Positions 42,830-63,613 of a stretch of DNA of 64,000 bases are shown here, one piece after another. A program made the position numbers and the translations under genes. The stretch covers positions 64,253 through 128,252 of the forward strand of contig DUEE01000002.1 in assembly GCA_011170285.1 (NCBI GenBank). The letters are read 5' to 3'. How positions within the stretch are numbered: position 1 is the first letter of the stretch; each line of letters starts with the position of its first letter. This stretch comes from Dehalococcoidia bacterium. GTDB lineage: Bacteria > Chloroflexota > Dehalococcoidia > Dehalococcoidales > W498. Under the pieces are notes generated by a model. It was not told where the DNA came from and ran no database searches. It saw nothing but the letters and a program-made list of their open reading frames with translations.

Positions 42830-43017
42830 GTCATTGCGATGCACTTACCCCCTCGTCATTGCGATGAGTCCTTCCCAGAAGGACGACGAAGCAATCTCAA
42901 GCAAACGATATAATCTTTTAGATTGTTTCGCTTCGCTCACAATGACATACTGAGAGATTGCTTCGCCCTTTATCCTTCAGCAAAGGGTGAAGGATGAACC
43001 GAAGGACTCACAATGAC
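42830..43017. repeat. MITE/REP-like nested palindrome, family 'A' subfamily 1
   Basis: GTCATTGCGATG...CTCGTCATTGCGATGAGTCCTTCCCAGAAGGACGACGAAGCAATCTC...GAGATTGCTTCG...GAAGGACTCACAATGAC. Nearly the same as 55779-55941. Confidence 0.75.
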
Positions 43018-43347: not shown

Positions 43348-44265
43348 TTAAATTTTTGGCTTTAGCGTAACCTGAATTTCCTTATCAGTCTTAACTACCT
43401 GCTCTACAGATGGCATTTCTCTCAAGATGCTAATTAAAGGAATTGATTTGTCTGCGGATACAACAATCTTGGCACCTTCCTCAACTGAGCCTCCAACTAA
43501 TACCAGGTGTAGATTTTGAACCTGACGCAAATATTCCTCCAATCTCCCCATCTGCTCATAATCTACTGGTGATGCTATCGTCATTTTCACCAATCCCTCA
43601 TAAAGTTCAGCGCTTAACTTTTCTTCGTCTTCCCTTTTTGCCGTCTCCTCGGCTTTCCTAGCTTCCTCAGCTTCCCCCTTAGCTTTCTCCTTAGCTGCCT
43701 CTTCGGCTTCCCGCTTAGCTTTCTCCTTGGCCGCCTGCTCAGCCTCTATCTTGGCTTCCTTCTCGGCTTCCTCAGCTTTCCTGGCTTCCTCATCTTCCCG
43801 CTTAGCTCTCTCCTTAGCCTCTTCGGCTTCCCGCTCAGCTCTCTCCTTGGCTGCCTGCTCAGCCTCTATCTTGGCTTCCTTCTCGGCTTCCGCAGCTTTC
43901 CTGGCTTCCTCATCTTGCCGCTTGGCTCTCTCCTTAGCCTCTTCGGCTTCCCGCTTAGCTTTCTCTCTGGCTGCTTGCTCAGCTTCCTTCTTTGCCTTCC
44001 TCTCGACTTCCTCGGCTTTCCTAGCTTCCTCAGCTGCCCGCTTGGCTCTCTCCTTAGCCTCTTCGGCTTCCCTTTTTGCCGTCTCCTCAGCCTTCCTAGC
44101 TTCCTCAGCTTCCCTCTTGGCTTCCTTCTCGGCTTGTTTATCGTATTTCATTTCTTTTGCGTCCCCCCTTACTTGCCTGCTATAATTATTTTTAGTATAA
44201 GCACAGTTAACAGCACTGTCAATAATGGTCAAGACTCGTCCCCGCTTAATGTCAGAAATTGACAT
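43348..44265 (-). CDS. Glu/Lys/Ala-rich tandem-repeat coiled-coil protein with a small C-terminal globular domain
   Basis: 305 aa. Residues ~45-215 are EAEEAKERAKR-type repeats. Residues 220-305 (LYEGLVKMTIASPVDYEQMGRLEEYL...IQVTLKPKI) are non-repetitive. The start is uncertain; M39 at 44151 lies behind AAGGGGGG. Confidence 0.6.
   Translation of the reverse strand: MSISDIKRGRVLTIIDSAVNCAYTKNNYSRQVRGDAKEMKYDKQAEKEAKREAEEARKAEETAKREAEEAKERAKRAAEEARKAEEVERKAKKEAEQAAREKAKREAEEAKERAKRQDEEARKAAEAEKEAKIEAEQAAKERAEREAEEAKERAKREDEEARKAEEAEKEAKIEAEQAAKEKAKREAEEAAKEKAKGEAEEARKAEETAKREDEEKLSAELYEGLVKMTIASPVDYEQMGRLEEYLRQVQNLHLVLVGGSVEEGAKIVVSADKSIPLISILREMPSVEQVVKTDKEIQVTLKPKI
43711..44070 (-). repeat. 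Three tandem 120-bp (40-aa) coding repeats
   Basis: The unit REAEEAKERAKR..EEARKAEE.EKEAK.EAEQAAKEKAK occurs 3 times with partial units on both sides. The antisense ORFs 43727-44185 and 43915-44262 are artefacts of the repeat. Confidence 0.85.
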
Positions 44266-54312: not shown

Positions 54313-54340
54313 AGGCTTTGTTTATCAATTTAATGTAGCA

Positions 54341-54520
54341 AGGAAAATTTAAAAGTTAAAAGATTAAAAGTTAAAAATAAAAATGAATAAATTTAAAGAC
54401 TTGACCGTTGATGAATTGGAGTATTTAATAGGTAGAAAATGTAAAAGTTGAAAATAAAAATGGGGGAAGATAAAAGATTAAGGGTTAAAATGTAAAAATG
54501 GATAAAAGGGAAAGTAGGAA
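54341..54520 (+). repeat. AT-rich repeat leader copy 1 (TTAAAAG-type short tandem units plus GGAAATGTAAAAGTTAAAAATAAAAATG plus AAAGACTTGACCGTTGATGAATTGGAGTATTTAATAG)
   Basis: Shares blocks with 55031-55163, 55674-55736 and 61543-61612. Ends in TAGGAAATG, whose ATG is the hicB start. Confidence 0.75.
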
Positions 54521-54736
54521 ATGAAGCATATTACCATTACTGCTGAATTGATAAAAGAGGAAGAAGGAGGCTATACCGTTTACTGCCCGGAACTGGATGT
54601 TTATACTCAGGGAGATGACATAGAAGACGCTATCAAAAACCTTAAAGAGGCTGCCGAACTCCACATAGAGGAGTTAGGAATAGAGAACATCAAGCTGAAA
54701 GAAATACAGCGGAGACAGATAGAAATGGTAGTTTAA
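54521..54736 (+). CDS. hicB: HicB-family antitoxin (pair 1)
   Basis: 71 aa with EEEGGYTVYCPELDVYTQGDDIEDAIKNLKEAAELHIE (UPF0150 pattern). Confidence 0.85.
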   Translation: MKHITITAELIKEEEGGYTVYCPELDVYTQGDDIEDAIKNLKEAAELHIEELGIENIKLKEIQRRQIEMVV

Positions 54737-54737
54737 C

Positions 54738-54974
54738 ATGCCTAGACTGCCGAGGATAACAGGAAAGGAATTAGTGAAGGCATTGCAAAAGGAAGGTTTT
54801 GAAATTACACGGCAAAAGGGAAGCCATGTGCAGATGACAAAGTATATTGTTGGTGATAAATTAACCTTTCCTGTTCCCGTTCATGCTGGCAAAATCGTTA
54901 AACAAGGGACTTTAAAGGGGATACTGAGAAAGGCAAACATTCCTGTGGAGCGACTGGATAGACTCCTTAAATGA
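54738..54974 (+). CDS. hicA: HicA-family mRNA interferase toxin (pair 1)
   Basis: 78 aa with ITGKELVKALQKEGFEITRQKGSHVQM. Confidence 0.88.
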   Translation: MPRLPRITGKELVKALQKEGFEITRQKGSHVQMTKYIVGDKLTFPVPVHAGKIVKQGTLKGILRKANIPVERLDRLLK

Positions 54975-55030
54975 TGGGAGATTAACTAGCAATAGGAATA
55001 GTAGATTAGGTTAAGTAAAATAGCCAGGCT

Positions 55031-55163
55031 AGGAAATGTAAAAGCTAAAAATAAAAATGAAAAAATTAGAGTGTTTAATAGAGTAGGAAATGTATAGGAA
55101 ATGTAAAAGTTAAAAATTTATAGACTTAACCATTGATGAATTGGAGTATTTAATAGATAGGAA
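55031..55163 (+). repeat. AT-rich repeat leader copy 2
   Basis: AGGAAATGTAAAAGCTAAAAATAAAAATG...AGGAAATGTAAAAGTTAAAAAT..TAGACTTAACCATTGATGAATTGGAGTATTTAATAGATAGGAAATG (hicB start). Confidence 0.75.
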
Positions 55164-55409
55164 ATGAAGACTTATGTTTTTAGAGTAGTGCTTGAACCTG
55201 ATGAAGGTCGCTGGTTTGCTTATTGCCCAGTCCTTGAAGAAAAGGGTGGAGCTACCTGGGGATATACCAGAGAAGAGGCCTTAAGGAATATAAGGGAGGT
55301 GATTGAAATGACAATCGAAGGCCTCATCGAGCGCGGGGAACCAATCCCTGAGCAACCAGAAATGGAAGTAAGGATTTCCCCTGAGCCCCTGGTGGTTGTT
55401 AATGTATGA
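55164..55409 (+). CDS. hicB: HicB-family antitoxin (pair 2)
   Basis: 81 aa with FRVVLEPDEGRWFAYCPVL...YTREEALRNIREVIEMTIEGL. Confidence 0.85.
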   Translation: MKTYVFRVVLEPDEGRWFAYCPVLEEKGGATWGYTREEALRNIREVIEMTIEGLIERGEPIPEQPEMEVRISPEPLVVVNV

Positions 55410-55663
55410 ATGGACTCGATTACTCCAGGCTCCGTTCTATAACTGCCAGGGAGATAATATCAGCTTTAATTAAAGATGGCTTTTACTTCGAACGACAGTC
55501 AGGTAGTCATCAACAATACTATCACCAGGATGGTAGGAGGGTGACGGTTTCTTTTCACCATCCAGGTGACACCTTCACTCCAAAGATTTTGAAGAGCATG
55601 ATTGAAAAGCAGTCCAAGTGGACATACGAAGACCTTAAGAGGTTGAAACTAATAGAACTTTAA
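55406..55663 (+). CDS. hicA: HicA-family toxin (pair 2)
   Basis: 85 aa with ITAREIISALIKDGFYFERQSGSHQQYYH. ATGA overlap with hicB. Confidence 0.85.
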   Translation: MNGLDYSRLRSITAREIISALIKDGFYFERQSGSHQQYYHQDGRRVTVSFHHPGDTFTPKILKSMIEKQSKWTYEDLKRLKLIEL

Positions 55664-55673
55664 GATGAAATGC

Positions 55674-55736
55674 GGGAAATGTAAAGGTTAAAAATAAAAA
55701 TGACAAAAGTTAAAGACTTAACCATTGATGAGTTGG
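55674..55736 (+). repeat. AT-rich repeat copy 3 (no gene attached)
   Basis: GGGAAATGTAAAGGTTAAAAATAAAAATGACAAAAGTTAAAGACTTAACCATTGATGAGTTGG. Confidence 0.7.
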
Positions 55737-55778
55737 GAATAAAGTTTAAGTTGGGAGCAAGCCCGATTAGTTCTTTGT

Positions 55779-55941
55779 GTAATTGCGAAGCACTAACCCT
55801 CTCGTCATTGCGAGGAGTTCTTCCCAGAAGGACGACGAGGCAATCTCGGAGGGGAGGAAACGGAGTGAGATTACAATGAGATTGCTTCGTCCTTTATCCT
55901 TCACCAAAGGGTGAAGGATGAACCGAAGGACTTGCAATGAC
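55779..55941. repeat. MITE/REP-like nested palindrome, family 'A' subfamily 1 (second copy)
   Basis: Near-identical blocks to 42830-43017 (CTCGTCATTGCGAGGAGTTCTTCCCAGAAGGACGACGAGGCAATCTC ... GAGATTGCTTCGTCCTTTATCCTTCACCAAAGGGTGAAGGATGAACCGAAGGACTTGCAATGAC). Confidence 0.75.
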
Positions 55942-55994
55942 ATTCCTTCTATTGAGAAGGAGCTTTGGAAAACCTTTATGGATGGAGTTAAATA

Positions 55995-56584: not shown

Positions 56585-58045
56585 ATGGCAAAGACAGTTA
56601 CTACACTATTTATTAGAGATGATATCATTAACCTGCTGGTAGTTGAGGGCAAGCAGATAAAGCAGTGGGCTAGACTACCACTGGAGCCGGGTCTGGTTAG
56701 GCAAGGGCTTGTTCTTGATGAAGAACAGGTAGCAGATAAGCTCAAAGAGCTATTCAAGCTGGAGAAGGTAAGCACTGATAAGGTCATCGTTGGTTTGAGC
56801 GGGCACAATTCCCTGTATCGCTTGCTAACTCTGCCTGACTTGCCTGAGGCAGTAGTCGCCGAGGCAGTAAGGCATGAAGCCAGAAGAGTGATTCCAGTGC
56901 CTATGGACGAGGTTTACCTTTCATACCAGCTTGTTCCTGCCCCCGAGAAGGAAAGACATGTTTTCCTGGCTGCTTTCCCCCGCAATTTGGTTGATGCCTT
57001 AATCAGGACGCTAAAGCAGGCAGGCATTGAGCCCTATATTATGGACTTGTCCCCGCTAGCCCTGTGCCGAACCCTGTTTGAGCCCAGAGGTATCATTGTC
57101 AATGCCAAGTTAGACCATCTTAACATTATGGTTATGGAAGATAGGCTGCCCGAAGTAATCCGCAGGCTCACCCTACCCGGCGAGGCTAAATCCTTATCGG
57201 AAAAACTGCCCACTATTATTGAAGAGCTTAATAGAACTGTTGCCTTCTATAATTCTAGCCATCAGGATAAGCCTATAGATTCAACCATGCCTGTATTTGT
57301 CTGCGGTGACTTAGCCGAGACACCGGAGAGCTGGCAACCACTGGTTAGTCAGTTGAGCTATTCATTCTCAGCATTACCATCGCCTCTGGAATCCCCTGAA
57401 GGCTTCAATGCCAACGAGTTTATGGTCAATATCGGACTGGCTCTGAAGGAGCTATCACCTGAGAAGTGGGGGATAAACCTCTCATTGGTCAATTTTAATA
57501 CCTTACCTGATGTTTACCTGTCCAAGCCCCTGCGTGTGTCACAAATCCTTATCCCGGCTGGTATCACCGTCGGCATAGGCTTAGTTATCTTTTTGGCATT
57601 TTTTACTTGGAACGGTATGGCTCATAATAAGGTATTGCGCTCCCAACTGGCACCTATTGAGAGCCAAATTAGCCTTGAGCGCGCAGAAATAGCGACCTTG
57701 CAGGAGCAGATAGGACTGATACAAGCCCAGATTGAGCCAGTAGAAACCACCTACAGTATTCTTAATACTACACTTACCTATCTGGGAGAAAGTCGTGAAG
57801 TTGTTGATGGAGATTTAAGTGAGATTGACCGCTTAAAGCCAACCACAGTAGACTTTACTGAGGTTAATCATACCGGTGATACGGTAACTGTCAGTGGCGT
57901 AGCGCCCGATGAGAAAAAGATTTTTAAATATGCTGCGGATTTAAGAAGCTGTGATAGAAACTTTACAGTTATTATATCATCTATTACTGCGATGAGTGAC
58001 GATGAAGGGTTTTATTTCGATTTTCTCCTGAAACACGACGGGTAG
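56585..58045 (+). CDS. pilM: PilM-PilN fusion protein
   Basis: 486 aa. Residues 1-~300 are an actin-like PilM. A TM helix follows (ILIPAGITVGIGLVIFLAFFTW), then a coiled coil and a PilN-like C-terminal domain. Confidence 0.78.
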   Translation: MAKTVTTLFIRDDIINLLVVEGKQIKQWARLPLEPGLVRQGLVLDEEQVADKLKELFKLEKVSTDKVIVGLSGHNSLYRLLTLPDLPEAVVAEAVRHEARRVIPVPMDEVYLSYQLVPAPEKERHVFLAAFPRNLVDALIRTLKQAGIEPYIMDLSPLALCRTLFEPRGIIVNAKLDHLNIMVMEDRLPEVIRRLTLPGEAKSLSEKLPTIIEELNRTVAFYNSSHQDKPIDSTMPVFVCGDLAETPESWQPLVSQLSYSFSALPSPLESPEGFNANEFMVNIGLALKELSPEKWGINLSLVNFNTLPDVYLSKPLRVSQILIPAGITVGIGLVIFLAFFTWNGMAHNKVLRSQLAPIESQISLERAEIATLQEQIGLIQAQIEPVETTYSILNTTLTYLGESREVVDGDLSEIDRLKPTTVDFTEVNHTGDTVTVSGVAPDEKKIFKYAADLRSCDRNFTVIISSITAMSDDEGFYFDFLLKHDG

Positions 58046-58056
58046 GAGGTTAAGAT

Positions 58057-59127
58057 ATGGATATTTTTTCATTGTTTAATTTAGCCAAATCCCAGGGCGC
58101 TTCTGATTTGCATATGGTTGTCTCCAGTCCGCCGCTACTGCGTATTAATGGCTTTCTACGGGTAGTGGATGGTGTGATGCCGCTAACCGCTGATGACATA
58201 AACCAGGCTTTTCTCCAGATAACCACCCCCGAGGAAAGGGAGGAATTCCAGCAGCATCTGGAGCTTGATTTCGGCTATAGCCTGCCTGAAGTTGGTCACC
58301 TCCGCTGTAACGCTGCCCAACAGCGTGGAGCTATCAGCCTGGCGGTGCGTCTGTTGCCGGCCAAAATACCCACCATAGATGAGCTGGAGTTACCCCAGTT
58401 ATGTAAGGAGTTTGCCTTAAAGCAGCGAGGACTGGCAATAGTTACCGGACCTACTGGCAGTGGTAAAAGCACTACCCTGGCAGCTATGGTAAACCACTTA
58501 AATATGAATGAGAGCCGCCATATAGTTACTATTGAGGATCCTATTGAATATGTCCACCCCACTATTAAATGTGCTGTAACCCAGCGCCAGTTAGGCTCTG
58601 ATACTCTATCTTTTGCCACCGCCCTGAGACATGTCTTAAGGCAGGACCCTGATGTCATTCTGGTGGGTGAGATGAGGGATTTAGATACTGCGGCGGCGGT
58701 GCTTACCATAGCTGAGACCGGGCACTTGATACTATCCACTGGTCATGCCCCCAGCGCGGCTCAATCAATGGAGAGAATAATAGATTTATTTCCACCCCAT
58801 GAGCGCCATCTAGCCCAGACACGGCTAGCTTCTTTACTTATTGGTGTGCTATGTCAGACGCTTGTTCCCCGAGTTGACGGCTCGGGGAGGATAGCTGCCG
58901 TTGAGGTTATGATAGCTAATCCAGCGGTGAAGAACCTCATCCGTGAGGGTAAAATCTACCAGTTACCTAATGTAATTCGCACTCATCGGGATATAGGCAT
59001 GATTTCACTAGACGAAGCCCTGGTTGACCTCTATCTTAAGCGGATAATCAATGGCGAAATCCTGCTTGCCTTCTGCAATGACCGCCAAGAGGTAGAAAAG
59101 CTTATCGGCAAGGTAGTGGTGGTGTAA
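58057..59127 (+). CDS. pilT: Type IV pilus retraction ATPase PilT
   Basis: 356 aa with GASDLHM, Walker A GPTGSGKST, DPDVILVGEMRD and GHLILSTGHA. Confidence 0.92.
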   Translation: MDIFSLFNLAKSQGASDLHMVVSSPPLLRINGFLRVVDGVMPLTADDINQAFLQITTPEEREEFQQHLELDFGYSLPEVGHLRCNAAQQRGAISLAVRLLPAKIPTIDELELPQLCKEFALKQRGLAIVTGPTGSGKSTTLAAMVNHLNMNESRHIVTIEDPIEYVHPTIKCAVTQRQLGSDTLSFATALRHVLRQDPDVILVGEMRDLDTAAAVLTIAETGHLILSTGHAPSAAQSMERIIDLFPPHERHLAQTRLASLLIGVLCQTLVPRVDGSGRIAAVEVMIANPAVKNLIREGKIYQLPNVIRTHRDIGMISLDEALVDLYLKRIINGEILLAFCNDRQEVEKLIGKVVVV

Positions 59128-59190
59128 GCTATCAGCTAATGGCTATTAGCTATCTGCTGACTGATGACTGCCGACTGCTAAAAGCTAATA
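59128..59190 (+). repeat. Heptanucleotide tract T1 (9 x GCTNNNN/GNNGACT)
   Basis: gctatca gctaatg gctatta gctatct gctgact gatgact gccgact gctaaaa gctaata. Begins at the nucleotide after the pilT stop. Confidence 0.85.
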
Positions 59191-59365
59191 TTCAGCGAAG
59201 GGGAAGGGTCTCTGAGATTCTTCGTCCTTCTACCGAAGGACTCAGAATGACAAAAACGGGCGGCACCCACCCTCTCGTCATTGCGAGCGAAGCGAAGCAA
59301 TCTCAATTAAAAAGGAAACCCTGAGATTGCCACGTCCTTCTAACGAAGGACTCGCAATGACATTC
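59166..59365 (+). repeat. Direct repeat, left copy (200 bp; contains a family 'A' subfamily 2 nested palindrome)
   Basis: About 95% identical to 60494-720 apart from a ~27-nt indel. Includes GTCATTGCGAG...GCAATCTC-N18-GAGATTGC...CTCGCAATGAC. ORF 59139-59324 is only its translation. Confidence 0.85.
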
Positions 59366-59374
59366 CGGTGAACG

Positions 59375-59486
59375 CTGACTGTTGATAGCTGACCGCTGAC
59401 TATTGACTAATGACTAATCACTATTGACTAATGACTATTGATTGCTGAAAGCTATTAGCTATAAGCTATTTGCTGGCTGCTTAGAT
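59375..59486 (+). repeat. Heptanucleotide tract T2 (16 degenerate units, consensus NTGACTA)
   Basis: ctgactg ttgatag ctgaccg ctgacta ttgacta atgacta atcacta ttgacta atgacta ttgattg ctgaaag ctattag ctataag ctatttg ctggctg cttagat. Confidence 0.85.
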
Positions 59487-59579
59487 ATAGCAAAGCCCAG
59501 TGGCGAGGTAGAAGTAAAACCAACTCCCTTATACTCTCCTTTACAATTTAATCACTCCCAGATATACTACCAGTGGAAA

Positions 59580-59807
59580 ATGGGAAGGAAACTTAGAGGC
59601 ATAAGTGGGCAAGAAGCTATCGAAGCTTTTAAGAAATTTGGCTATAGCCAGAGGAAGGGTAAAGGAAGCCATGTAAATCTGGTTAAGCCTGGAAGCAATA
59701 GGCTGACTATACCGCTCCATACTGAATTAAGCGTGGGGTTATTAGCCAATGAAATAAAAAAGGCTGGTTTAACCGTGGAAGAATTTCAAGAGCTTCTAGG
59801 GAGGTGA
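59580..59807 (+). CDS. hicA: HicA-family toxin (pair 3)
   Basis: From M47 of the track ORF: MGRKLRGISGQEAIEAFKKFGYSQRKGKGSHVNLVKPG... The upstream part of the track ORF is a translated heptamer tract. Confidence 0.85.
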   Translation: MGRKLRGISGQEAIEAFKKFGYSQRKGKGSHVNLVKPGSNRLTIPLHTELSVGLLANEIKKAGLTVEEFQELLGR

Positions 59808-59810
59808 CAA

Positions 59811-60035
59811 ATGGAGGCTATGGAATATACAGTGATTTTGCACTGGGATGAAGAATATAACGGTTACTGGATAGAAGTACCGGCATTACCTGGCTGTGTC
59901 TCCCAGGGTAAAAGCAAAGAGGAGGCGTTAGCTAATATCAAAGAAGCTATTGAACTACACCTTGAGTGTTTGGAAGAAGACGGCGAGGTCATACCCAAGG
60001 AAGAATCTTACCGAATAGCTGTAGCTGCCAAATAA
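59811..60035 (+). CDS. hicB: HicB-family antitoxin (pair 3)
   Basis: 74 aa with YTVILHWDEEYNGYWIEVPALPGCVSQGKSKEEALANIKEAIELHLE. Confidence 0.88.
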   Translation: MEAMEYTVILHWDEEYNGYWIEVPALPGCVSQGKSKEEALANIKEAIELHLECLEEDGEVIPKEESYRIAVAAK

Positions 60036-60049
60036 GCTCTCGGCAATTG

Positions 60050-60120
60050 GCTATCAGCTTTAAGCTTTAATGCTTTCAGCATTTAGCAGTCGGCAGTCAG
60101 CAGTCGGCAGTTAGCTCCAA
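60050..60120 (+). repeat. Heptanucleotide tract T3 (10 units; its GCAGTCG part is the reverse complement of the T4/T5 units)
   Basis: gctatca gctttaa gctttaa (t) gctttca gcattta gcagtcg gcagtca gcagtcg gcagtta gctccaa. Ends 1 nt before the four-helix-bundle GTG start. Confidence 0.85.
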
Positions 60121-60121
60121 A

Positions 60122-60481
60122 GTGAAAGATTTCAAAGAACTGGAAGTATGGGTTAAGGCTCATCAGTTGACTCTGGCGGTCTATGAGGCTACCCAGACGT
60201 TCCCCCGTTATGAATTTTATGGACTGACAAGTCAAATCAGGCGTTCATGTGCTTCCATACCAGCCAATATTGCGGAAGGTTGCGGCCGAAGTGGAGATGC
60301 CGAGCTGGCTCGCTTCCTCCAGATTGCGATGGGTTCGGCAAGCGAGCTTGAATATCACATTCTGCTGGCTCGTGACCTCAGCTTACTCAACAGCCTAGCC
60401 TATGACCACCTGGCTAGTGATGTGACCGTGGTAAAACGCATGCTGGCGTCATTTATCAAGAAGCTGAAAGCTGACTACTGA
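60122..60481 (+). CDS. Four-helix-bundle protein (23S rRNA IVS protein / Avd-like family)
   Basis: 119 aa. FKELEVWVKAHQLTLAVYEATQTFPRYEFYGLTSQIRRSCASIPANIAEGCGR matches the family pattern (TIGR02436-like). GTG start. Confidence 0.85.
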   Translation: MKDFKELEVWVKAHQLTLAVYEATQTFPRYEFYGLTSQIRRSCASIPANIAEGCGRSGDAELARFLQIAMGSASELEYHILLARDLSLLNSLAYDHLASDVTVVKRMLASFIKKLKADY

Positions 60482-60518
60482 CTGCCGACTGCCGACTGCC
60501 GACTGCTAAAAGCTATTA
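60463..60518 (+). repeat. Heptanucleotide tract T4 (8 units), overlapping the last codons of the four-helix-bundle ORF
   Basis: gctgaaa gctgact actgact gccgact gccgact gccgact gctaaaa gctatta. The stop TGA (60479-81) lies inside the tract. Confidence 0.85.
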
Positions 60519-60720
60519 TTCAGCGAAGGGGAAGCGTCTCTGAGATTCTTCGTCCTTCTACCGAAGGACTCAGAATGACAAAAATGGGCGGCACTCACCC
60601 TCTCGTCATTGCGATGAGCCGAAGCCCTGAGCGTAGCGAAGGGAAAGCGAAGCAATCTCAATTAAAAAGGAAACCATGAGATTGCCACGTCCTTCTAACG
60701 AAGGACTCGCAATGACATTC
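60494..60720 (+). repeat. Direct repeat, right copy (227 bp)
   Basis: Collinear with 59166-59365 and carries an extra GAGCCGAAGCCCTGAGCGTAGCGAAGGGAA-like insert. Confidence 0.85.
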
Positions 60721-60721
60721 G

Positions 60722-60819
60722 GCTGACTACTGACTCCCGACTGTTGACTGTTTACCGCTGACTGCCGACTGCCGACTGCTGACTGCCGACTGCCGACTGC
60801 CGACTGCTAAAAGCTAATA
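60722..60819 (+). repeat. Heptanucleotide tract T5 (14 units, mostly GCCGACT/GCTGACT)
   Basis: gctgact actgact cccgact gttgact gtttacc gctgact gccgact gccgact gctgact gccgact gccgact gccgact gctaaaa gctaata. Confidence 0.88.
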
Positions 60820-60823
60820 CATA

Positions 60824-60866
60824 GAAAAGCTCATCGGTAAATCGCTGCTAAACATTACCGATGAGC
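60824..60866 (-). terminator. Rho-independent terminator of pilA
   Basis: A 12-bp perfect stem GCTCATCGGTAA/TTACCGATGAGC with a 14-nt loop, followed on the minus strand by UUUUC. Lies 85 nt past the pilA stop. Confidence 0.6.
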
Positions 60867-60951
60867 CTTATCTAACCGATTCTTACTCCTGGCTACGCCT
60901 GCTTATTCCGGCACAACTCACTATAGCTGTAATCCAACTATTTTAAAGCTA

Positions 60952-61332
60952 TTAGGCTTTGGCGCCTTGAGTTGTCACGCCATCAATCAAAATAGTATAT
61001 GTGTATTCAGTCGGGTTTAGTAGGTACTTTTGCGGGTCATTAACAGCAGTAACACCAGTAGGGTCTAGCTGCGCGGCGGTATAAGTCACTATAACCGGAC
61101 TCATACCGGCAGCTGTCCCCTCAACCATTGCCGCCGTTACTGCTACCAGCACATTAGCCAGTTCCGTCTCAGCCGCCTCTGATTCACCACTGCCAATAAA
61201 CCGGGCGACGGCAGGGATGGCTACTGCTGCCAGGACACCCAGAATAGCTACTACCACCAGCAGCTCAATCAGTGTGAAACCCTTCTCACCATAACGAAAC
61301 GATTTCTTGAACTTACTTATAAACCTCCTCAT
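60952..61332 (-). CDS. pilA: Major type IV pilin candidate (prepilin-type N-terminal domain)
   Basis: 126 aa with leader ...RYGEKG/FTLIELLVVVAILGVLAAVAIP. Strong SD (AAGGAAGGAGG). Small size and a dedicated terminator suggest the major subunit. Confidence 0.82.
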   Translation of the reverse strand: MRRFISKFKKSFRYGEKGFTLIELLVVVAILGVLAAVAIPAVARFIGSGESEAAETELANVLVAVTAAMVEGTAAGMSPVIVTYTAAQLDPTGVTAVNDPQKYLLNPTEYTYTILIDGVTTQGAKA

Positions 61333-61684: not shown

Positions 61685-61909
61685 TTACCCTTTCACCAAC
61701 TGAATAAATTCATCAATACTTATATCAGCGGTGCGAAGTATGGCTCGCATAGTGCCCCTATCTAGCTTATTATGTTTGGGAACGGTGACTGGCCTCCTCC
61801 CGGGACATCTCATCCTGACATGACTTCCCCTGGTTCGAGCTACCCTGTAGCCAATTCGCTCAAGGGCTGAGATGCATTGGTCGCCCGAAACAATCGGTAG
61901 CTCTGGCAT
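61685..61909 (-). CDS. hicA: HicA-family toxin (pair 4)
   Basis: 74 aa with VSGDQCISALERIGYRVARTRGSHVRM. TGATG overlap with hicB. Confidence 0.85.
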   Translation of the reverse strand: MPELPIVSGDQCISALERIGYRVARTRGSHVRMRCPGRRPVTVPKHNKLDRGTMRAILRTADISIDEFIQLVKG

Positions 61910-62139
61910 CAGGTGCCAATCTCAACCTGATCAAGAACATATTCCATGGGTAGAGTCCAGCCTTCCTCTTCCATACTTTCCAGGCAGAGCTCAGCAGCTT
62001 CTTTAATGTTGACTAGAGCCTCCTCTTTAGTCCTCCCCTGTGAAATGCAGCCGGGGACTACTGGTATCTCGGCTACAAAATAACCATCTTCCCCCACTGT
62101 GATAACAACAGGCAGCTTCATTTCTCTTACCTCCCCCAT
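61909..62139 (-). CDS. hicB: HicB-family antitoxin (pair 4)
   Basis: 76 aa with VVITVGEDGYFVAEIPVVPGCISQGRTKEEALVNIKEAAELCLE. Confidence 0.85.
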   Translation of the reverse strand: MGEVREMKLPVVITVGEDGYFVAEIPVVPGCISQGRTKEEALVNIKEAAELCLESMEEEGWTLPMEYVLDQVEIGT

Positions 62140-62245: not shown

Positions 62246-63613
62246 TTAGCTAGATGGCTCCAGATCGTTAACCTCAAAGACCTTGATTTTCTGCCTCTGG
62301 GCAAACTGGCGGGCTTCCTGGGTAAGCCCGGGAACGGCAATAAAGACCTTAGCTAGAATACCTATATCATAAGCCTTATCATCAAAATCAAATACCTTCT
62401 CTAATCCCACCGCCTCCTCAGCTAGCTCAATGCCGACAACAACACGATGAGTAATGATGGCGTCATCCCTGGTAGCCAGTATGTCTATACTGTGTTCTGC
62501 CCCTGACCTGCCTGTAACCTCAGTATTTTCCTCTATTTCGTAGTCTTGCTGCTTTAAGTATTCTATAAACTGTGACTTGGAGTTAAATTCAAAGGGCTCT
62601 CTTTTTACCCCCTCGCTGGGCTTGGGGACACCGCCAGCCAGCACCGTCTCCAAATCCTTAACTCCAAGTACATTTATTCTCTGCAGACTGGCATATTTCT
62701 CCGCCTCTTTGCCTAAAGCGGGGGCAACAACCAGAATTTTATCGTGAATACCTATATCATAGGCTATATCATCAAAGTTAAATATCTCTCCCAGCCCTAT
62801 CTCATCTCCAGCCACCTTAATCCCAATAGCGATATTACAAGTAATAACACCATCATCCCTGGTAGCCAGTATATCTATACTGTGTTTTGCCCCTGACCTG
62901 CCTTTAACCTCTGCATTTTCCTTTACTTCATAGCCGCGCTTTTTCAAAAATTCTATGAGTTGTGATTTGGGCTTAAGTTCAAATTCCAGCCAGCCTCTCT
63001 TTGCCTCATTGAAACGATAAGAATAGACATTTACCTCACTAACACCATCCTCAGCGGTAAGCGACGAGCATTTCAGGCAGCGCCATTTTATTATGGGTAT
63101 GTTGAATACCTCATCGCAATCGCGGCACTTGCGCAGCATCCCCAGGCTACGGTAGTCACTGCCAATAGTCCGTAGCTCCTGCCCACACTTGGGGCATATA
63201 TACCTACCTTTGTGGATAAACTCGGCTTCAAGCCCAACATATTTACAGACAAAGTGCTCAAATACCCTGCCCCGGGGAATATTCCCTGAGCCACACTTAG
63301 GACAACGGGTAGAGGGTCTCAAAACTACCGACAGACACTGGGGACAGTGAATGAACTTATCAAAGAACTCCCTTTTCACTATACCCTTATCAGCCAGTAA
63401 TTCTAAAGTTGATACCACTTCCCCTCCCTTAACGGCTAATACTTGCTCAACTGCTGGATAGATGAAGCCCAGTTCACTGGTGAAATCAAGCTCCGGTCTA
63501 ATATCAACAATCCTCCCCGCTAGCATTTCTGCCCCCAGTCTCATTGCCTTTTCATTCTGCTCAATTTGTGTGGCTGGGGTAGTATTATTTACAGGCTCAT
63601 TTACTTCAGCCAA
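62246..63613 (-). CDS. Multi-zinc-ribbon protein with two C-terminal copies of the PilB N-terminal module
   Basis: 455 aa. Residues ~30-85 are a possible winged-helix region. Residues 90-182 carry five CxxC pairs (C90/93, C104/107, C140/143, C163/166, C179/182). Residues 216-322 and 346-452 are the module GY/DYE[VI].EN.EV.GRSGA.HSIDILATRDD...AYDIGI..K[IV]...P.L..EA..[YF]A..Q.I.V. Confidence 0.7.
   Translation of the reverse strand: MAEVNEPVNNTTPATQIEQNEKAMRLGAEMLAGRIVDIRPELDFTSELGFIYPAVEQVLAVKGGEVVSTLELLADKGIVKREFFDKFIHCPQCLSVVLRPSTRCPKCGSGNIPRGRVFEHFVCKYVGLEAEFIHKGRYICPKCGQELRTIGSDYRSLGMLRKCRDCDEVFNIPIIKWRCLKCSSLTAEDGVSEVNVYSYRFNEAKRGWLEFELKPKSQLIEFLKKRGYEVKENAEVKGRSGAKHSIDILATRDDGVITCNIAIGIKVAGDEIGLGEIFNFDDIAYDIGIHDKILVVAPALGKEAEKYASLQRINVLGVKDLETVLAGGVPKPSEGVKREPFEFNSKSQFIEYLKQQDYEIEENTEVTGRSGAEHSIDILATRDDAIITHRVVVGIELAEEAVGLEKVFDFDDKAYDIGILAKVFIAVPGLTQEARQFAQRQKIKVFEVNDLEPSS

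What the first reader, a model, noticed from the sequence alone, without database searches (positions are those of the whole stretch)
59128..60819. Five tracts of strict 7-nt periodicity (STRR-like heptamers) bracket a hicAB pair and a four-helix-bundle gene
Seen: T1 59128-59190 (9 units), T2 59375-59486 (16 units), T3 60050-60120 (10 units), T4 60463-60518 (8 units) and T5 60722-60819 (14 units) are all tandem heptamers of the type GCNNNNN/GNCGACT. T1 starts at the first base after the pilT stop. T3 ends 1 nt before the four-helix-bundle start codon. T4 encodes that ORF's last six residues (KLKADY) and its stop. T3 contains CAGTCGGCAGTCAGCAGTCGGCAG (60087-60110), the perfect reverse complement of 60769-60792 in T5, so the four-helix-bundle gene lies inside a 24-bp perfect inverted repeat. 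Established: heptameric STRR arrays are known from cyanobacteria. As far as I recall, IVS-type four-helix-bundle genes are often embedded in inverted-repeat stems. Inference: this may be a mobile or recombinogenic cassette, or an RNA stem processed by RNase III.
Basis: partly seen in the sequence, partly recalled or inferred. Interest (0 to 1): 0.6.

Follow-up and report, generated by a model that had tools for sequence, protein, structure and literature searches.

The report
Four-helix-bundle gene inside heptamer-repeat hairpin
A small, conserved gene of unknown function sits in the loop of a hairpin whose two arms are 7-base tandem repeats; this resembles the "intervening sequences" of ribosomal RNA genes, but it lies between ordinary genes, and I found the same layout in at least 14 phyla.

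Summary
They are not one structure.

**The cassette.** T3 (reverse orientation) and T4 (forward) are the two arms of an IVS-type cassette. A 119-aa four-helix-bundle ORF (PF05635/TIGR02436, S23p) sits in the loop of a ~37-bp stem made of GCTGAnn-type heptamers.

**A family habit.** In 71 intact homologous loci from at least 14 phyla, 58 show inverted complementarity above the control 95th percentile. When the heptamer sequence differs, both arms differ together; the period stays 7.

**Neighbours and stability.**
- hicAB is a lineage-specific neighbour and is not part of the cassette.
- The protein is under strong purifying selection (dN/dS 0.09–0.14).
- A close relative has deleted most of the ORF and kept the arms.
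- ORF-less heptamer hairpins are common in metagenomes.
- Copy number does not vary among strains.

**Not shown.** RNase III processing, as in 23S rRNA IVSs, is inferred and not shown. A G·U versus A·C test gave no RNA-strand signal. DNA-level mobility remains open.

**Verdict.** This is a new variant of a known kind.

The parts
59094..59110 (+). 17-nt motif AGAAAAGCTTATCGGCA inside the 3' end of pilT. It is the first of two copies that bound the whole inserted block.
   Evidence: exactly two copies in the window. Relatives with an empty gap also have two copies, and L235 has three (the extra one upstream of hicBA).
59128..59190 (+). T1: 9 forward-type heptamers (GCTAnnn/GCTGACT/GCCGACT). Left flank of composite repeat A.
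   Evidence: The junction GCTAAAAGCTAWTA|TTCAGCGAAGGGG is shared with copy B and with a third copy in L001.
59191..59368 (.). Core A: a 176-178-nt hairpin-rich repeat. It holds two related hairpins (CGTCCTTCTAMCGAAGGACTC) and the outer helices GTCATTGCGA/TCGCAATGAC and GCAATCTC/GAGATTGC.
   Evidence: (fold z = -5.6 on + and -6.4 on -). No Rfam match. Terminator-like hairpin on the minus strand at 59272-59258.
59375..59486 (+). T2: 16 forward-type heptamers (nTGACTA/GCTGAnn/GCTAnnn). Right flank of composite repeat A. Gene callers extend hicA into it.
59479..59522 (+). Degenerate copy of the pilT-3'-end motif, just upstream of the hicAB promoter.
   Evidence: family D4, 64%. Same relative position as the extra motif copy upstream of hicBA in L235.
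59540..59568 (+). Promoter-like site TTTACA-17-TATACT in front of hicA.
   Evidence: 10 of 12. The sequence is conserved in L234 and L026. This is a consensus match only.
59580..59807 (+). hicA toxin gene. The likely true start is ATG at 59580; the mechanical ORF starts at 59442 inside T2.
   Evidence: PF07927, E = 2e-11.
59811..60035 (+). hicB antitoxin gene.
   Evidence: PF15919, E = 1e-13.
60050..60120 (+). T3: the upstream arm. Its heptamers are in reverse orientation (nnTCAGC / AGTCGGC types) with one 1-nt phase slip. It ends 1 nt before the GTG start.
60122..60481 (+). 119-aa four-helix-bundle protein (23S_rRNA_IVP / TIGR02436 / S23p). Its last codons (KLKADY*) are the first heptamers of T4.
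   Evidence: PF05635, E = 4e-36; TIGR02436; PDB 2GSC, 2e-24; 7999 homologues; dN/dS 0.088 against L026.
60463..60518 (+). T4: the downstream arm, with forward heptamers GCTGAAA GCTGACT ACTGACT GCCGACT x3 GCTAAAA GCTATTA. It is also the left flank of composite repeat B.
   Evidence: I4: 60078-60114 x 60478-60514, 37 nt, 92%; the minimum-free-energy fold pairs T3 with T4 around the ORF.
60519..60721 (.). Core B: the same repeat as core A with a 27-nt insertion.
   Evidence: It is absent from one Logan contig, L003, where T4 is joined to the end of T5; this is either assembly collapse or a real deletion.
60722..60819 (+). T5: 14 forward heptamers. Right flank of composite repeat B, and an alternative partner of T3.
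   Evidence: (I3, I7).
60823..60869 (.). Second copy of the 17-nt motif. It forms the left arm of a 15-bp hairpin (60826-60840 / 60855-60869) downstream of the convergent pilin gene.
   Evidence: (I14). The hairpin is conserved in relatives.

Best explanation
The five tracts belong to two superimposed repeat systems.

**(1) The cassette: T3 and T4.**
- T3 (reverse orientation) and T4 (forward) are the arms of an IVS-type cassette.
- A 119-aa four-helix-bundle ORF (PF05635, 'S23p') lies in the loop of a ~37-bp stem built from inverted arrays of GCTGAnn-type heptamers.
- The ORF's last five or six codons are themselves the first heptamers of the downstream arm.

**(2) The composite repeats: T1+T2 and T4+T5.**
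- These pairs are the heptamer flanks of two copies of a 176/203-nt hairpin-rich 'core' repeat, which is multi-copy in this Dehalococcoidales genome.
- Copy B is the cassette's downstream arm with a core in it.
- Copy A is a paralogue of B (by duplication or gene conversion) sitting where relatives have a core-like repeat without heptamers.
- hicAB is a separate toxin-antitoxin cassette that happens to lie upstream.

**How it most likely works.**
- Shown: the architecture, its conservation, and purifying selection on the protein.
- Inferred: transcription from the hicAB promoter, or from host operons elsewhere, runs through arm-ORF-arm. The arms pair in the RNA and leave the ribosome-binding region and ORF in the loop. 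As shown experimentally for 23S rRNA intervening sequences, RNase III cuts the stem, so the ORF-bearing loop is released from the host transcript.
- The non-identical units (a constant 5-mer plus 2 variable bases) keep the arrays stable against slippage.
- In about 43% of loci the forward arm closes all three reading frames within 42 nt of the stop.
For: **Family identity.**

**The local stem.**
- T3:T4 is 37 nt at 92% complementarity.
- The minimum-free-energy RNA fold of 60045-60525 closes the whole ORF with it, z = -5.4.
- The window's inverted score is 28, against a control 95th percentile of 10.

**Conservation.**
- Among 71 intact loci from at least 14 phyla, a strong period-7 tract is present upstream in 65% and downstream in 68%, against 1-2% of control positions.
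- 58 of 71 exceed the control 95th percentile for inverted complementarity; only 11 of 71 do so for direct repeats.
- Among 63 loci with recurrent period-7 5-mers on both sides, 39 of 42 GCTGA-type loci and 15 of 21 loci with other heptamers (GCTAA, GCTAG, CTGAC, TGCCG, GCTCA, AACTG and others) carry the reverse complement of their own unit upstream.
- More distant paralogues use quite different heptamers in the same layout: TTAGACn/GTCTAAn, GGGCAAT/TTGCCCC, GGGTTTG/CCAAACC.

**Placement.** The upstream arm ends a median 31 nt before the start codon. The downstream arm begins a median 11 nt before the end of the ORF (the last base of the stop codon).

**C-termini.** Almost all of the 120 best homologues listed end in ...KL[KN]AD[RS]*, which is two heptamers.

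**Operon habit.** Both neighbours are co-oriented in 42 of 64 loci, with median gaps of 76 and 51 nt. A gene of this family was reported between cmr3 and cmr2 (PMC3936711).

**The protein is functional.** dN/dS is 0.088 against the nearest species and a median 0.14 family-wide.

**Precedent (PMC4990558).** The Coxiella 23S IVS has an S23p ORF inside a 28-bp terminal inverted-repeat stem cut by RNase III, with tandem GACAGAT heptamers at the cleavage site.

**Second repeat system.**

**Ancestral gap.** Relatives have core-like repeats in the gap but no heptamers.
Against: - There is no expression or processing data.
- Mismatches in 63 arm pairs are G·U 50 against A·C 48. This gives no sign that pairing is maintained specifically in the sense RNA, so a DNA-level constraint fits equally well.
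- Among GCTGA-type loci, the two arms of one locus are only marginally more complementary to each other than to arms of other loci (19.7 vs 17.4, p = 0.046). Most of the complementarity is therefore 'same motif, opposite orientation' and not fine co-evolution.
- A few loci have direct instead of inverted arrays (L030, L083, L100, L104).
- The window's ORF has a GTG start and no visible Shine-Dalgarno sequence.
- The claim that copy A derives from copy B is inference from similarity only.
Confidence: 0.55

Rival explanations
1. It is a DNA-level selfish or mobile cassette. The inverted heptamer arrays act like terminal inverted repeats (or fold as hairpins in single-stranded DNA). The four-helix-bundle protein is the element's own factor. 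The many ORF-less heptamer hairpins are its non-autonomous or decayed derivatives, as MITEs are to transposons. This does not exclude an RNA stem as well.
For: - The same 119-aa gene sits in unrelated operon spacers in at least 14 phyla.
- In a metagenome sample of 5xGCTGAnn arrays, 38 of 147 arms lie in hairpins with 9-114-nt loops of unrelated sequence. The gap distribution is bimodal: up to 114 nt, or 362-544 nt.
- Those hairpins share the cassette's polarity: TCAGC arm then GCTGA arm 31 times, the opposite 7 times.
- L234, a strain with 98%-identical PilT, has lost about 265 nt of the ORF's 5' part while keeping both arms. This is an intermediate on the way to a short-loop hairpin.
- There is no G·U excess.
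- Most homologues sit on short contigs, as repeats do.
Against: - The protein or its ±10 kb neighbourhood has no nuclease, recombinase, transposase or reverse-transcriptase domain.
- No target-site duplication or clean empty site was found.
- Synonymous sites between homologues are saturated (pS 0.83), and pilT-hicB-4HB synteny is kept between species, so there is no recent transfer here.
- Arrays are identical among strains.
- Only 9 relatives were found in 2.9 million viral contigs.
- Only 6 of 120 array loci carry the gene.
Confidence: 0.3
2. The arrays work as insulators. The outward-facing GCTGAnn units put a stop codon in all three frames on either strand, and the long stem blocks read-through. 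An inserted gene would then disturb its host operon as little as possible.
For: - All three frames are closed within 42 nt after the stop in 43% of loci, against 3% of random 42-mers.
- Most variant heptamers keep a stop triplet: GCTGA, GCTAG, GCTAA, ACTGA, GTCTAA.
- There is a polarity bias of 31:7.
- Insertion into operons is tight and co-directional.
Against: - Several heptamer types have no stop: GCCGACT here, and CCAAACC and TTGCCCC elsewhere.
- 57% of loci do not close all frames.
- The idea does not explain why the period is always 7 or why the arms are inverted.
Confidence: 0.15
3. The tracts are neutral microsatellites made by replication slippage, seeded by the GCTGAAAGCTGAC at the gene's 3' end. 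The inverted arrangement has no function.
For: - Heptamer tracts of many sequences occur elsewhere in the same genomes, about 6.8 per 100 kb of flank.
- 69 of 147 arrays in the metagenome sample have no partner.
- Locus-specific complementarity is weak.
Against: - Slippage gives identical units and variable copy number. Here the units differ at 2 of 7 positions, and copy number is invariant among strains in three species.
- An upstream array in the opposite orientation is present in 58 of 71 loci and tracks the heptamer type.
- The polarity bias is 31:7.
Confidence: 0.08
4. The block is an integron-like or att-site cassette array. Small cassettes (hicAB, 4HB) are inserted by site-specific recombination at a motif in the pilT 3' end, and the repeats are recombination sites.
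For: - The 17-nt motif AGAAAAGCTNAYCGGYA bounds the whole block (59094-59110 and 60823-60839).
- L235 has an extra copy upstream of its hicBA cassette, while L236, with identical PilT, lacks the cassette.
- There are four hicAB pairs in 8 kb.
Against: - There is no integrase or recombinase within ±10 kb.
- The motif is already present twice in relatives with an empty gap (L236, L237), so the insertion did not create it.
- The L235/L236 breakpoints lie in another 16-nt repeat.
- The idea says nothing about the heptamers, which accompany the 4HB gene in unrelated genomes.
Confidence: 0.1

Closest known systems
23S rRNA intervening sequences carrying an S23p ORF (Leptospira and Coxiella burnetii; the general IVS type is also known in Salmonella)
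   Same: - The ORF belongs to the same protein family (PF05635/TIGR02436; PDB 2GSC matches at 2e-24).
- The ORF sits in the loop of a stem formed by terminal inverted repeats.
- In Coxiella the stem region contains tandem heptamers (GACAGAT x2-3), and RNase III cuts at the first of them (PMC4990558).
   Different: - The cassette is not in an rRNA gene. The window has no rRNA, and the cassette lies between hicB and a pilin gene in a type IV pilus cluster.
- The arms are long arrays of 8-10 non-identical GCTGAnn-type units on both sides.
- The protein is under strong purifying selection (dN/dS 0.09), whereas the Coxiella ORF is decaying and apparently untranslated.
- Copy number does not vary among strains here, whereas it does in Coxiella.
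- RNase III processing is untested.
Cyanobacterial STRR sequences (short tandemly repeated repetitive heptamers STRR1-3), recalled from my own knowledge (Mazel et al. 1990)
   Same: Both are intergenic tandem heptamers of unknown function. Cyanobacterial members of this 4HB subfamily (Moorena L008, Microcoleaceae L049) carry the same arrays.
   Different: - The organism is a Dehalococcoidales bacterium.
- The units are GCTGAnn/GCCGACT and not CCCCAGT, TTGGTCA or CAACAGT. Only two isolated CAACAGT units occur.
- The arrays come as inverted pairs around a gene or a short loop. To my knowledge that has not been described for STRRs, and I could not check the original papers.
Avd, the accessory four-helix-bundle protein of diversity-generating retroelements
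   Same: It is a homologous small four-helix-bundle fold. A weak PF22296 bAvd hit was found (E = 0.009, below the cut-off), and precomputed bAvd hits are recorded on many homologues.
   Different: There is no reverse transcriptase and no template or variable repeat nearby. The Pfam score is far below the bAvd threshold.
REP/REPIN and MITE-type intergenic repeats
   Same: The 176/203-nt cores are multi-copy, hairpin-rich and intergenic, and some occur as inverted pairs (L001 14060-14440 and 15920-16260). The ORF-less heptamer hairpins resemble non-autonomous derivatives.
   Different: No RAYT or transposase was found. No GTAG-type REP signature or target-site duplication was identified. The cores are embedded in heptamer arrays, which REPs are not.
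23S_rRNA_IVP genes reported inside CRISPR-cas loci (Zhang & Ye 2013, PMC3936711)
   Same: The same family is inserted tightly between co-directional operon genes, for example between cmr3 and cmr2. This matches the kdsA-msbA and hdrB-hdrA-like insertions seen here.
   Different: That paper read the genes as cas-associated functions and did not mention flanking repeats. Here the habit is general and not tied to cas genes.

Membership tests
IVS-type S23p cassette (23S rRNA intervening sequence) | The ORF belongs to the 23S_rRNA_IVP / four-helix-bundle family. | tested here: met
   PF05635 E = 4e-36 at 123.8 bits (cut-off 33.8). TIGR02436 at 126.8 bits (cut-off 24). PDB 2GSC at 2e-24.
IVS-type S23p cassette (23S rRNA intervening sequence) | The ORF is enclosed by terminal inverted repeats able to form a long stem. 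| tested here: met
   T3:T4 is 37 nt at 92%. The minimum-free-energy fold closes the ORF, z = -5.4. 58 of 71 homologous loci do likewise.
IVS-type S23p cassette (23S rRNA intervening sequence) | It is inserted in a helix (25 or 45) of a 23S rRNA gene. | tested here: not met
   The Rfam scan of the whole window finds only tRNAs and an L10 leader. The cassette lies between hicB and a pilin gene.
IVS-type S23p cassette (23S rRNA intervening sequence) | The stem is cleaved by RNase III, releasing the ORF-bearing loop. | not testable with these tools
   No transcript data are available. The indirect test for sense-strand RNA pairing was negative (G·U 50 vs A·C 48).
IVS-type S23p cassette (23S rRNA intervening sequence) | Tandem heptamers lie in the stem region (described for Coxiella). 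| tested here: met
   The comparison rests. The heptamer sequence differs: GCTGAnn/GCCGACT here, GACAGAT in Coxiella.
Cyanobacterial STRR | Tandem arrays of 7-nt units in intergenic DNA. | tested here: met
Cyanobacterial STRR | The unit sequences are STRR1 CCCCAGT, STRR2 TTGGTCA or STRR3 CAACAGT (from memory). | tested here: not met
   Only two single ACTGTTG units occur, at 59378 and 60740. The dominant units are GCTGAnn, GCCGACT and nTGACTA.
Cyanobacterial STRR | The host is a (heterocystous) cyanobacterium and the repeats are dispersed genome-wide. | tested here: not met
   The nearest relatives of the 4HB and PilT proteins are Dehalococcoidia/Dehalococcoidales MAGs. In the 64 kb, these tracts occur only at 59.1-60.8 kb, with more just beyond the window.
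DGR accessory protein Avd | The protein scores as bAvd. | tested here: not met
   PF22296 scores 16.9 bits against a cut-off of 40.
DGR accessory protein Avd | An adjacent reverse transcriptase and a template/variable repeat pair are present. | tested here: not met
   The gene table for ±10 kb lists pilus genes, hicAB pairs, TackOD1-Mrr, a prepilin peptidase, GH3 and a GGDEF protein. There is no RT.
HicAB toxin-antitoxin | Adjacent HicA (PF07927) and HicB (PF15919) genes. | tested here: met
   2e-11 and 1e-13. The genes are 3 nt apart (59807 and 59811).
MITE / transposon with terminal inverted repeats | Terminal inverted repeats plus a target-site duplication, and an autonomous partner encoding a transposase. 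| tested here: inconclusive
   Inverted arms are present, and ORF-less hairpins share their polarity. No target-site duplication or empty site was defined, and the protein or neighbourhood has no transposase-like domain.
Integron gene cassette | An integron integrase and attC sites bound each cassette. | tested here: not met
   No tyrosine recombinase lies within ±10 kb. The 17-nt bounding motif pre-exists in relatives with an empty gap. No attC model was run.

The most novel reading that the evidence does not exclude
PF05635 four-helix-bundle ORFs with inverted 7-nt-repeat arms form a pan-bacterial class of selfish cassette. On this reading, the 23S rRNA intervening sequences are only the rRNA-borne special case. 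The abundant ORF-less heptamer hairpins, and possibly the cyanobacterial STRRs, are its non-autonomous or decayed derivatives. The strictly conserved period of 7, despite unrelated unit sequences, would reflect the mechanism by which the protein or a host factor builds, recognises or moves the arms.
Probability: 0.22. Interest if true: 0.85.

Novelty: new variant of a known kind. Interest (0 to 1): 0.6.

Why it matters
It has been known since 1993 from rRNA intervening sequences and still has no function. Tandem heptamers such as the cyanobacterial STRRs have been unexplained for about 35 years.

This locus, with the comparative data gathered here, ties the two together. The gene is almost always framed by inverted period-7 arrays, whatever the unit sequence and whatever the host operon. 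The same arrays also occur as ORF-less hairpins with the same polarity.

That yields a concrete, testable model system: a conserved protein plus a defined RNA or DNA structure.

It also warns annotators of three things:
- 4HB genes found inside operons, including cas loci, may be passengers.
- ORFs are routinely mis-extended through the arrays. The 121-aa hicA call here is an example.
- These repeats break short-read assemblies.

Tried and rejected
- **Rfam.** The gathering scan of the whole window and the permissive scan of 58900-61100 gave nothing for the tracts or the cores. The only hits were chance-level CRISPR-DR60 and TCL6 matches.
- **G·U versus A·C asymmetry** in 63 arm pairs, meant to decide between RNA- and DNA-level pairing: 50 vs 48, uninformative.
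- **Same-locus versus cross-locus arm complementarity:** only marginal.
- **Covariation in the core repeat:** the copies are too similar, and RNAalifold found no compensatory pair. By eye there is one compensated change, GTCCTTC/GAAGGAC to GCCCTTC/GAAGGGC, in L001.
- **Unit-number variation:** none in 5 assemblies of this locus, 10 Methylomirabilis contigs or 7 hdr-locus contigs.
- **Defence-system models (PADLOC):** no hit for 4HB, HicA, HicB or the TackOD1-Mrr protein.
- **Phage carriage:** 9 relatives in 2.9 million viral contigs.
- **Literature.** No paper in the library links PF05635 or 'four helix bundle protein' with heptamers or inverted repeats outside rRNA. Elhai et al. 2008 and Ralph & McClelland 1993 are not held.
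- **Assembly artefact:** rejected.
- **Integron reading:** rejected for lack of an integrase, and because the bounding motif pre-exists.
- **Narrow HMM.** The 4HB profile used on the metagenome array loci is narrow, so '6 of 120' is a lower bound. Of the three ORF-sized loops without a hit, I read the loop ORFs only by eye and ran no family search on them; two carry ORFs of about 160 aa on the opposite strand, and none looked like a 4HB gene.

Full report
**1. The observation**

The five tracts exist as described. Tandem Repeats Finder reports period-7 arrays only in 59127-60808, plus one unrelated AT-rich tract at 54344.

A sliding lag-match scan with periods 5-11 finds tracts only for period 7, at 59125-59191, 59373-59481, 60056-60120, 60453-60524 and 60720-60829, plus the one at 54335-54392. 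Written in units of 7, the tracts hold 9, 16, 10 (with a 1-nt slip), 8 and 14 units.

T1 starts at the base after the pilT stop. T3 ends 1 nt before the GTG start. T4 encodes KLKADY*. The 24-mer at 60087-60110 is the perfect reverse complement of 60769-60792.

That 24-mer also matches T4 with 1 mismatch and T1 with 2, six registers in all. This is because T3 is the same heptamer family in the opposite orientation. The longest complementary stretches are T3:T4 (37 nt, 92%), T3:T5 (38 nt, 92%) and T3:T1 (39 nt, 90%).

The 1.8 kb from 59100 to 60900 is 100% identical in five independent assemblies from different samples, so it is not an artefact.

**2.

T1+T2 and T4+T5 are the flanks of two direct copies of a structured repeat: core A (59191-59368) and core B (60519-60721, with a 27-nt insertion). 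The left 133 nt are 95% identical, and the heptamers next to the junctions are conserved too.

Each core holds two related hairpins (CGTCCTTCTAMCGAAGGACTC; 4 matches against 0.02 expected) and nested outer helices. It folds far better than shuffles on either strand (z = -5.6 and -6.4). It matches no Rfam family.

More copies lie just beyond the window end. Two of them are ~350-nt inverted composites around a pilin gene and a prepilin peptidase gene. Degenerate copies without heptamers lie at 55780-55945 and elsewhere.

**3. Genes**

- pilM-like: 56585-58045.
- pilT-like ATPase: 58057-59127.
- hicA (PF07927): 59580-59807. The mechanical ORF runs back into T2.
- hicB (PF15919): 59811-60035.
- 119-aa 23S_rRNA_IVP four-helix-bundle protein: 60122-60481. 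It matches PF05635 at 4e-36, TIGR02436, and PDB 2GSC at 2e-24.
- Convergent pilin: 60952-61332 on the minus strand.
- A second hicAB pair and a TackOD1-Mrr protein lie further on.

The organism is a Dehalococcoidales bacterium, judged from the best relatives of both the 4HB and PilT proteins.

**4. The key comparative result**

The 4HB protein has thousands of close homologues. The best 120 listed are 74-97% identical, and most are exactly 119 aa. They come from Cyanobacteria, NC10, Nitrospirota, Deltaproteobacteria, Dehalococcoidia and other groups. Nearly all end in ...KL[KN]AD[RS]*, whose codons AAGCTGAAAGCTGAC are two GCTGAnn heptamers.

The DNA around homologues in Moorena, in Methylomirabilis and in an hdr-like operon shows the same layout. 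Reverse-orientation heptamers (nnTCAGC) lie upstream, and forward GCTGAnn units run from the last codons onward.

I then fetched 80 loci from one genome per species. They represent at least 14 phyla, plus one Bathyarchaeia MAG contig. I measured the 71 with intact ORFs against control positions in the same loci:

| Measure | At the 4HB gene | Controls |
|---|---|---|
| Strong period-7 tract upstream | 65% of loci | 1% |
| Strong period-7 tract downstream | 68% of loci | 2% |
| Median ungapped inverted score | 15 | 7 |
| Loci above the control 95th percentile, inverted | 58 of 71 | n/a |
| Loci above the control 95th percentile, direct | 11 of 71 | n/a |

The unit differs between lineages (GCTGA, GCTAA, GCTAG, CTGAC, TGCCG, GCTCA, AACTG and others), and the upstream arm is the reverse complement of that locus's own unit. 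This holds for 39 of 42 GCTGA-type loci and 15 of 21 others.

More distant 4HB paralogues have unrelated heptamers in the same arrangement: TTAGACn/GTCTAAn, GGGCAAT/TTGCCCC and GGGTTTG/CCAAACC. The period of 7 and the inverted layout are therefore conserved while the sequence is not.

The upstream arm ends a median 31 nt before the start codon. The downstream arm begins a median 11 nt before the end of the ORF (the last base of the stop codon). The cassettes sit tightly in operon spacers, with median gaps of 76 and 51 nt, and both neighbours are co-oriented in 42 of 64 loci.

**5. The window's cassette**

T3 and T4 are the two arms. The minimum-free-energy RNA fold of 60045-60525 pairs them over about 38 bp and leaves the whole ORF in the loop (z = -5.4).

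A promoter-like site (59540-59568) in front of hicA is conserved in relatives. The cassette is therefore probably co-transcribed with hicAB; this step is inferred.

The protein is under strong purifying selection. dN/dS is 0.088 against the 92%-identical orthologue in another Dehalococcoidia MAG, and the median is 0.14 across the family, with synonymous sites saturated.

**6. History of the locus**

PilT orthologues at 83-85% identity have a 420-730-nt pilT→←pilin gap. That gap contains core-like hairpin repeats but no heptamers, no hicAB and no 4HB gene (L236, L237, L240).

The window, L026 and L234 carry hicB (with hicA in the window and L234) together with the 4HB cassette or, in L234, its remnant.

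L234 (PilT 98% identical) keeps hicAB and both arms but has lost about 265 nt of the ORF's 5' part. It has also lost the pilin gene. This shows the cassette decaying towards a short-loop heptamer hairpin.

Heptamers therefore arrived with the 4HB cassette. T4-coreB-T5 is the downstream arm merged with a core. T1-coreA-T2 is most simply a paralogous copy laid over the older core-like repeat behind pilT; this is inference from the similarity.

One Logan contig (L003) joins T4 directly to the end of T5. I cannot tell whether that is a real deletion or a de Bruijn collapse across the shared 38 nt.

**7. From the array side**

Only 6 carry a 4HB gene by my narrow profile.

The 147 arrays of at least 5 units break down as follows:
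- 38 arms lie in hairpins with a reverse arm up to 114 nt away. The loops are 9-114 nt of unrelated sequence.
- 9 arms have ORF-sized loops of 362-544 nt. Three of these six loci contain 4HB.
- 3 arms have a partner 121-300 nt away.
- 69 have no partner.
- 28 are too close to a contig end to judge.

The hairpins have the cassette's polarity, TCAGC arm first, 31 times against 7.

In the flanks of the 80 genome loci there are 33 further period-7 tracts of many sequences, often as inverted pairs.

The gene is very strongly associated with the arrays, but most arrays have no gene.

**8. Mechanism and its limits**

The closest documented system is the 23S rRNA intervening sequence. The Coxiella IVS has an S23p ORF inside a 28-bp terminal inverted-repeat stem. 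RNase III cuts that stem at the first of two or three tandem GACAGAT heptamers, whose number varies among strains (PMC4990558). By analogy I propose that the T3:T4 duplex is an RNase III substrate that releases the ORF-bearing loop from the host transcript.

Three results are against a purely RNA-level reading:
- Arm mismatches show no G·U excess over A·C (50 vs 48).
- Within the GCTGA type, the arms of one locus fit each other only slightly better than arms of other loci.
- Copy number is invariant among strains.

A DNA-level selfish-element reading is favoured by the cross-phylum spread into unrelated operons, by the ORF-less hairpins with the same polarity, and by the L234 intermediate. It lacks any recognisable catalytic domain, target duplication or recent transfer.

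In 43% of loci the forward arm closes all three reading frames within 42 nt, against 3% of random 42-mers. This suggests an insulating side-effect.

**9. Comparison and novelty**

The cassette meets the protein-family, inverted-repeat and heptamer features of S23p-type IVSs. It fails the defining location in 23S rRNA, since the window has no rRNA.

It is STRR-like in form, but not in unit sequence or host. It is not a DGR Avd, because the score is below the cut-off and there is no RT.

The library holds no paper that links this family with flanking heptamers outside rRNA. The one paper on non-rRNA copies read them as cas-associated.

I therefore rate this a new variant of a known kind. The family-wide regularity (period 7 conserved, sequence not) is the interesting and unexplained part.

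Noticed in passing
window 54330-54520, 55020-55165, 55670-55745: An AT-rich repeat of about 55-110 nt (TAAAAGTTAAAAATAAAAATGA...AGACTTRACCRTTGATGARTTGG) precedes each of two further hicBA pairs and follows the second. One copy contains its own period-7 run (AAAAGTT). It looks like a cassette-boundary repeat of a different kind.
   Followed up: partly
window 54523-54975, 55166-55663, 59580-60035, 61685-62139: Four HicA/HicB pairs lie within 8 kb, interleaved with type IV pilus genes (pilM, pilT, pilins). Relatives with 83-85% identical PilT have none, or one, at these places.
   Followed up: partly
window 59094-59110 and 60823-60839: The 17-nt motif AGAAAAGCTNAYCGGYA occurs exactly twice in 64 kb: inside the pilT 3' end and just after T5, where it forms the left arm of the hairpin behind the pilin gene. 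Relatives with an empty gap also have two copies. L235 has a third copy upstream of its hicBA cassette, and L236, with identical PilT, lacks that cassette.
   Followed up: partly
L001 14060-14440 (+) and 15920-16260 (-), equal to window coordinates about 64181-66381, just beyond the window end: Two inverted copies of a heptamer+core+heptamer+half-core composite, each about 350 nt, flank a pilin gene and the prepilin peptidase gene. This may be an invertible or recombining segment. One hairpin shows a compensated change (GTCCTTC/GAAGGAC to GCCCTTC/GAAGGGC).
   Followed up: no
window 55780-55945; also 42841-42868 and 42917-42946: Degenerate or partial copies of the core repeat (GTCATTGCGAG...GCAATCTC...GAGATTGC...GCAATGAC) occur without heptamers. 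Similar core-like repeats occur in other Dehalococcoidales (L235, L240). When translated they give the recurrent pseudo-peptides VIASEAKQS and LRFARNDE.
   Followed up: partly
L003 (Logan SRR3085435), equal to window 60478-60780: This contig joins T4 directly to the end of T5 and lacks core B. It is either a real deletion variant or an assembly collapse across the shared 38-nt heptamer stretch.
   Followed up: partly
L009 1676-2062 (Methylomirabilis, GCA_002632385.1): A second, different 4HB gene sits in the same operon (pyrG-4HB-kdsA-4HB-msbA). It has GGGTTTG heptamers upstream and CCAAACC-type heptamers forming its last codons (...PNPQPQPQPPNPSQ*). In L011 the array is shorter and the C-terminus differs.
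   Followed up: partly
L033 (contig CAYGWT010000140.1, labelled Bathyarchaeia archaeon): A complete cassette (69% identical protein, TCAGC/GCTGA arms) lies on a 2-kb contig binned as archaeal. This is either cross-domain presence or a binning error.
   Followed up: no
window 43646-44072: A tandem repeat with a 120-nt period (3.5 copies, 89% match) and 12- and 24-nt sub-periods (TCCTYAGCTTCC...). It is probably a repetitive coding region on the minus strand.
   Followed up: no
window 62246-63613 (-): A 455-aa protein with an N-terminal TackOD1 domain, a double zinc ribbon and two Mrr_cat restriction-endonuclease-like domains. It is conserved next to the pilin gene in relatives (L235, L240). PADLOC gives no hit.
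   Followed up: no
L001 13580-13660; L026 3400-3600; L235 2520-2660; L237 5590-5680: A third repeat type is made of short G/C-rich hairpins (ccccttcccctt...aaggggaagggg, gaggggctgacgcccctc). It recurs in these Dehalococcoidales intergenic regions. The L235/L236 presence/absence breakpoints lie in one of them.
   Followed up: no
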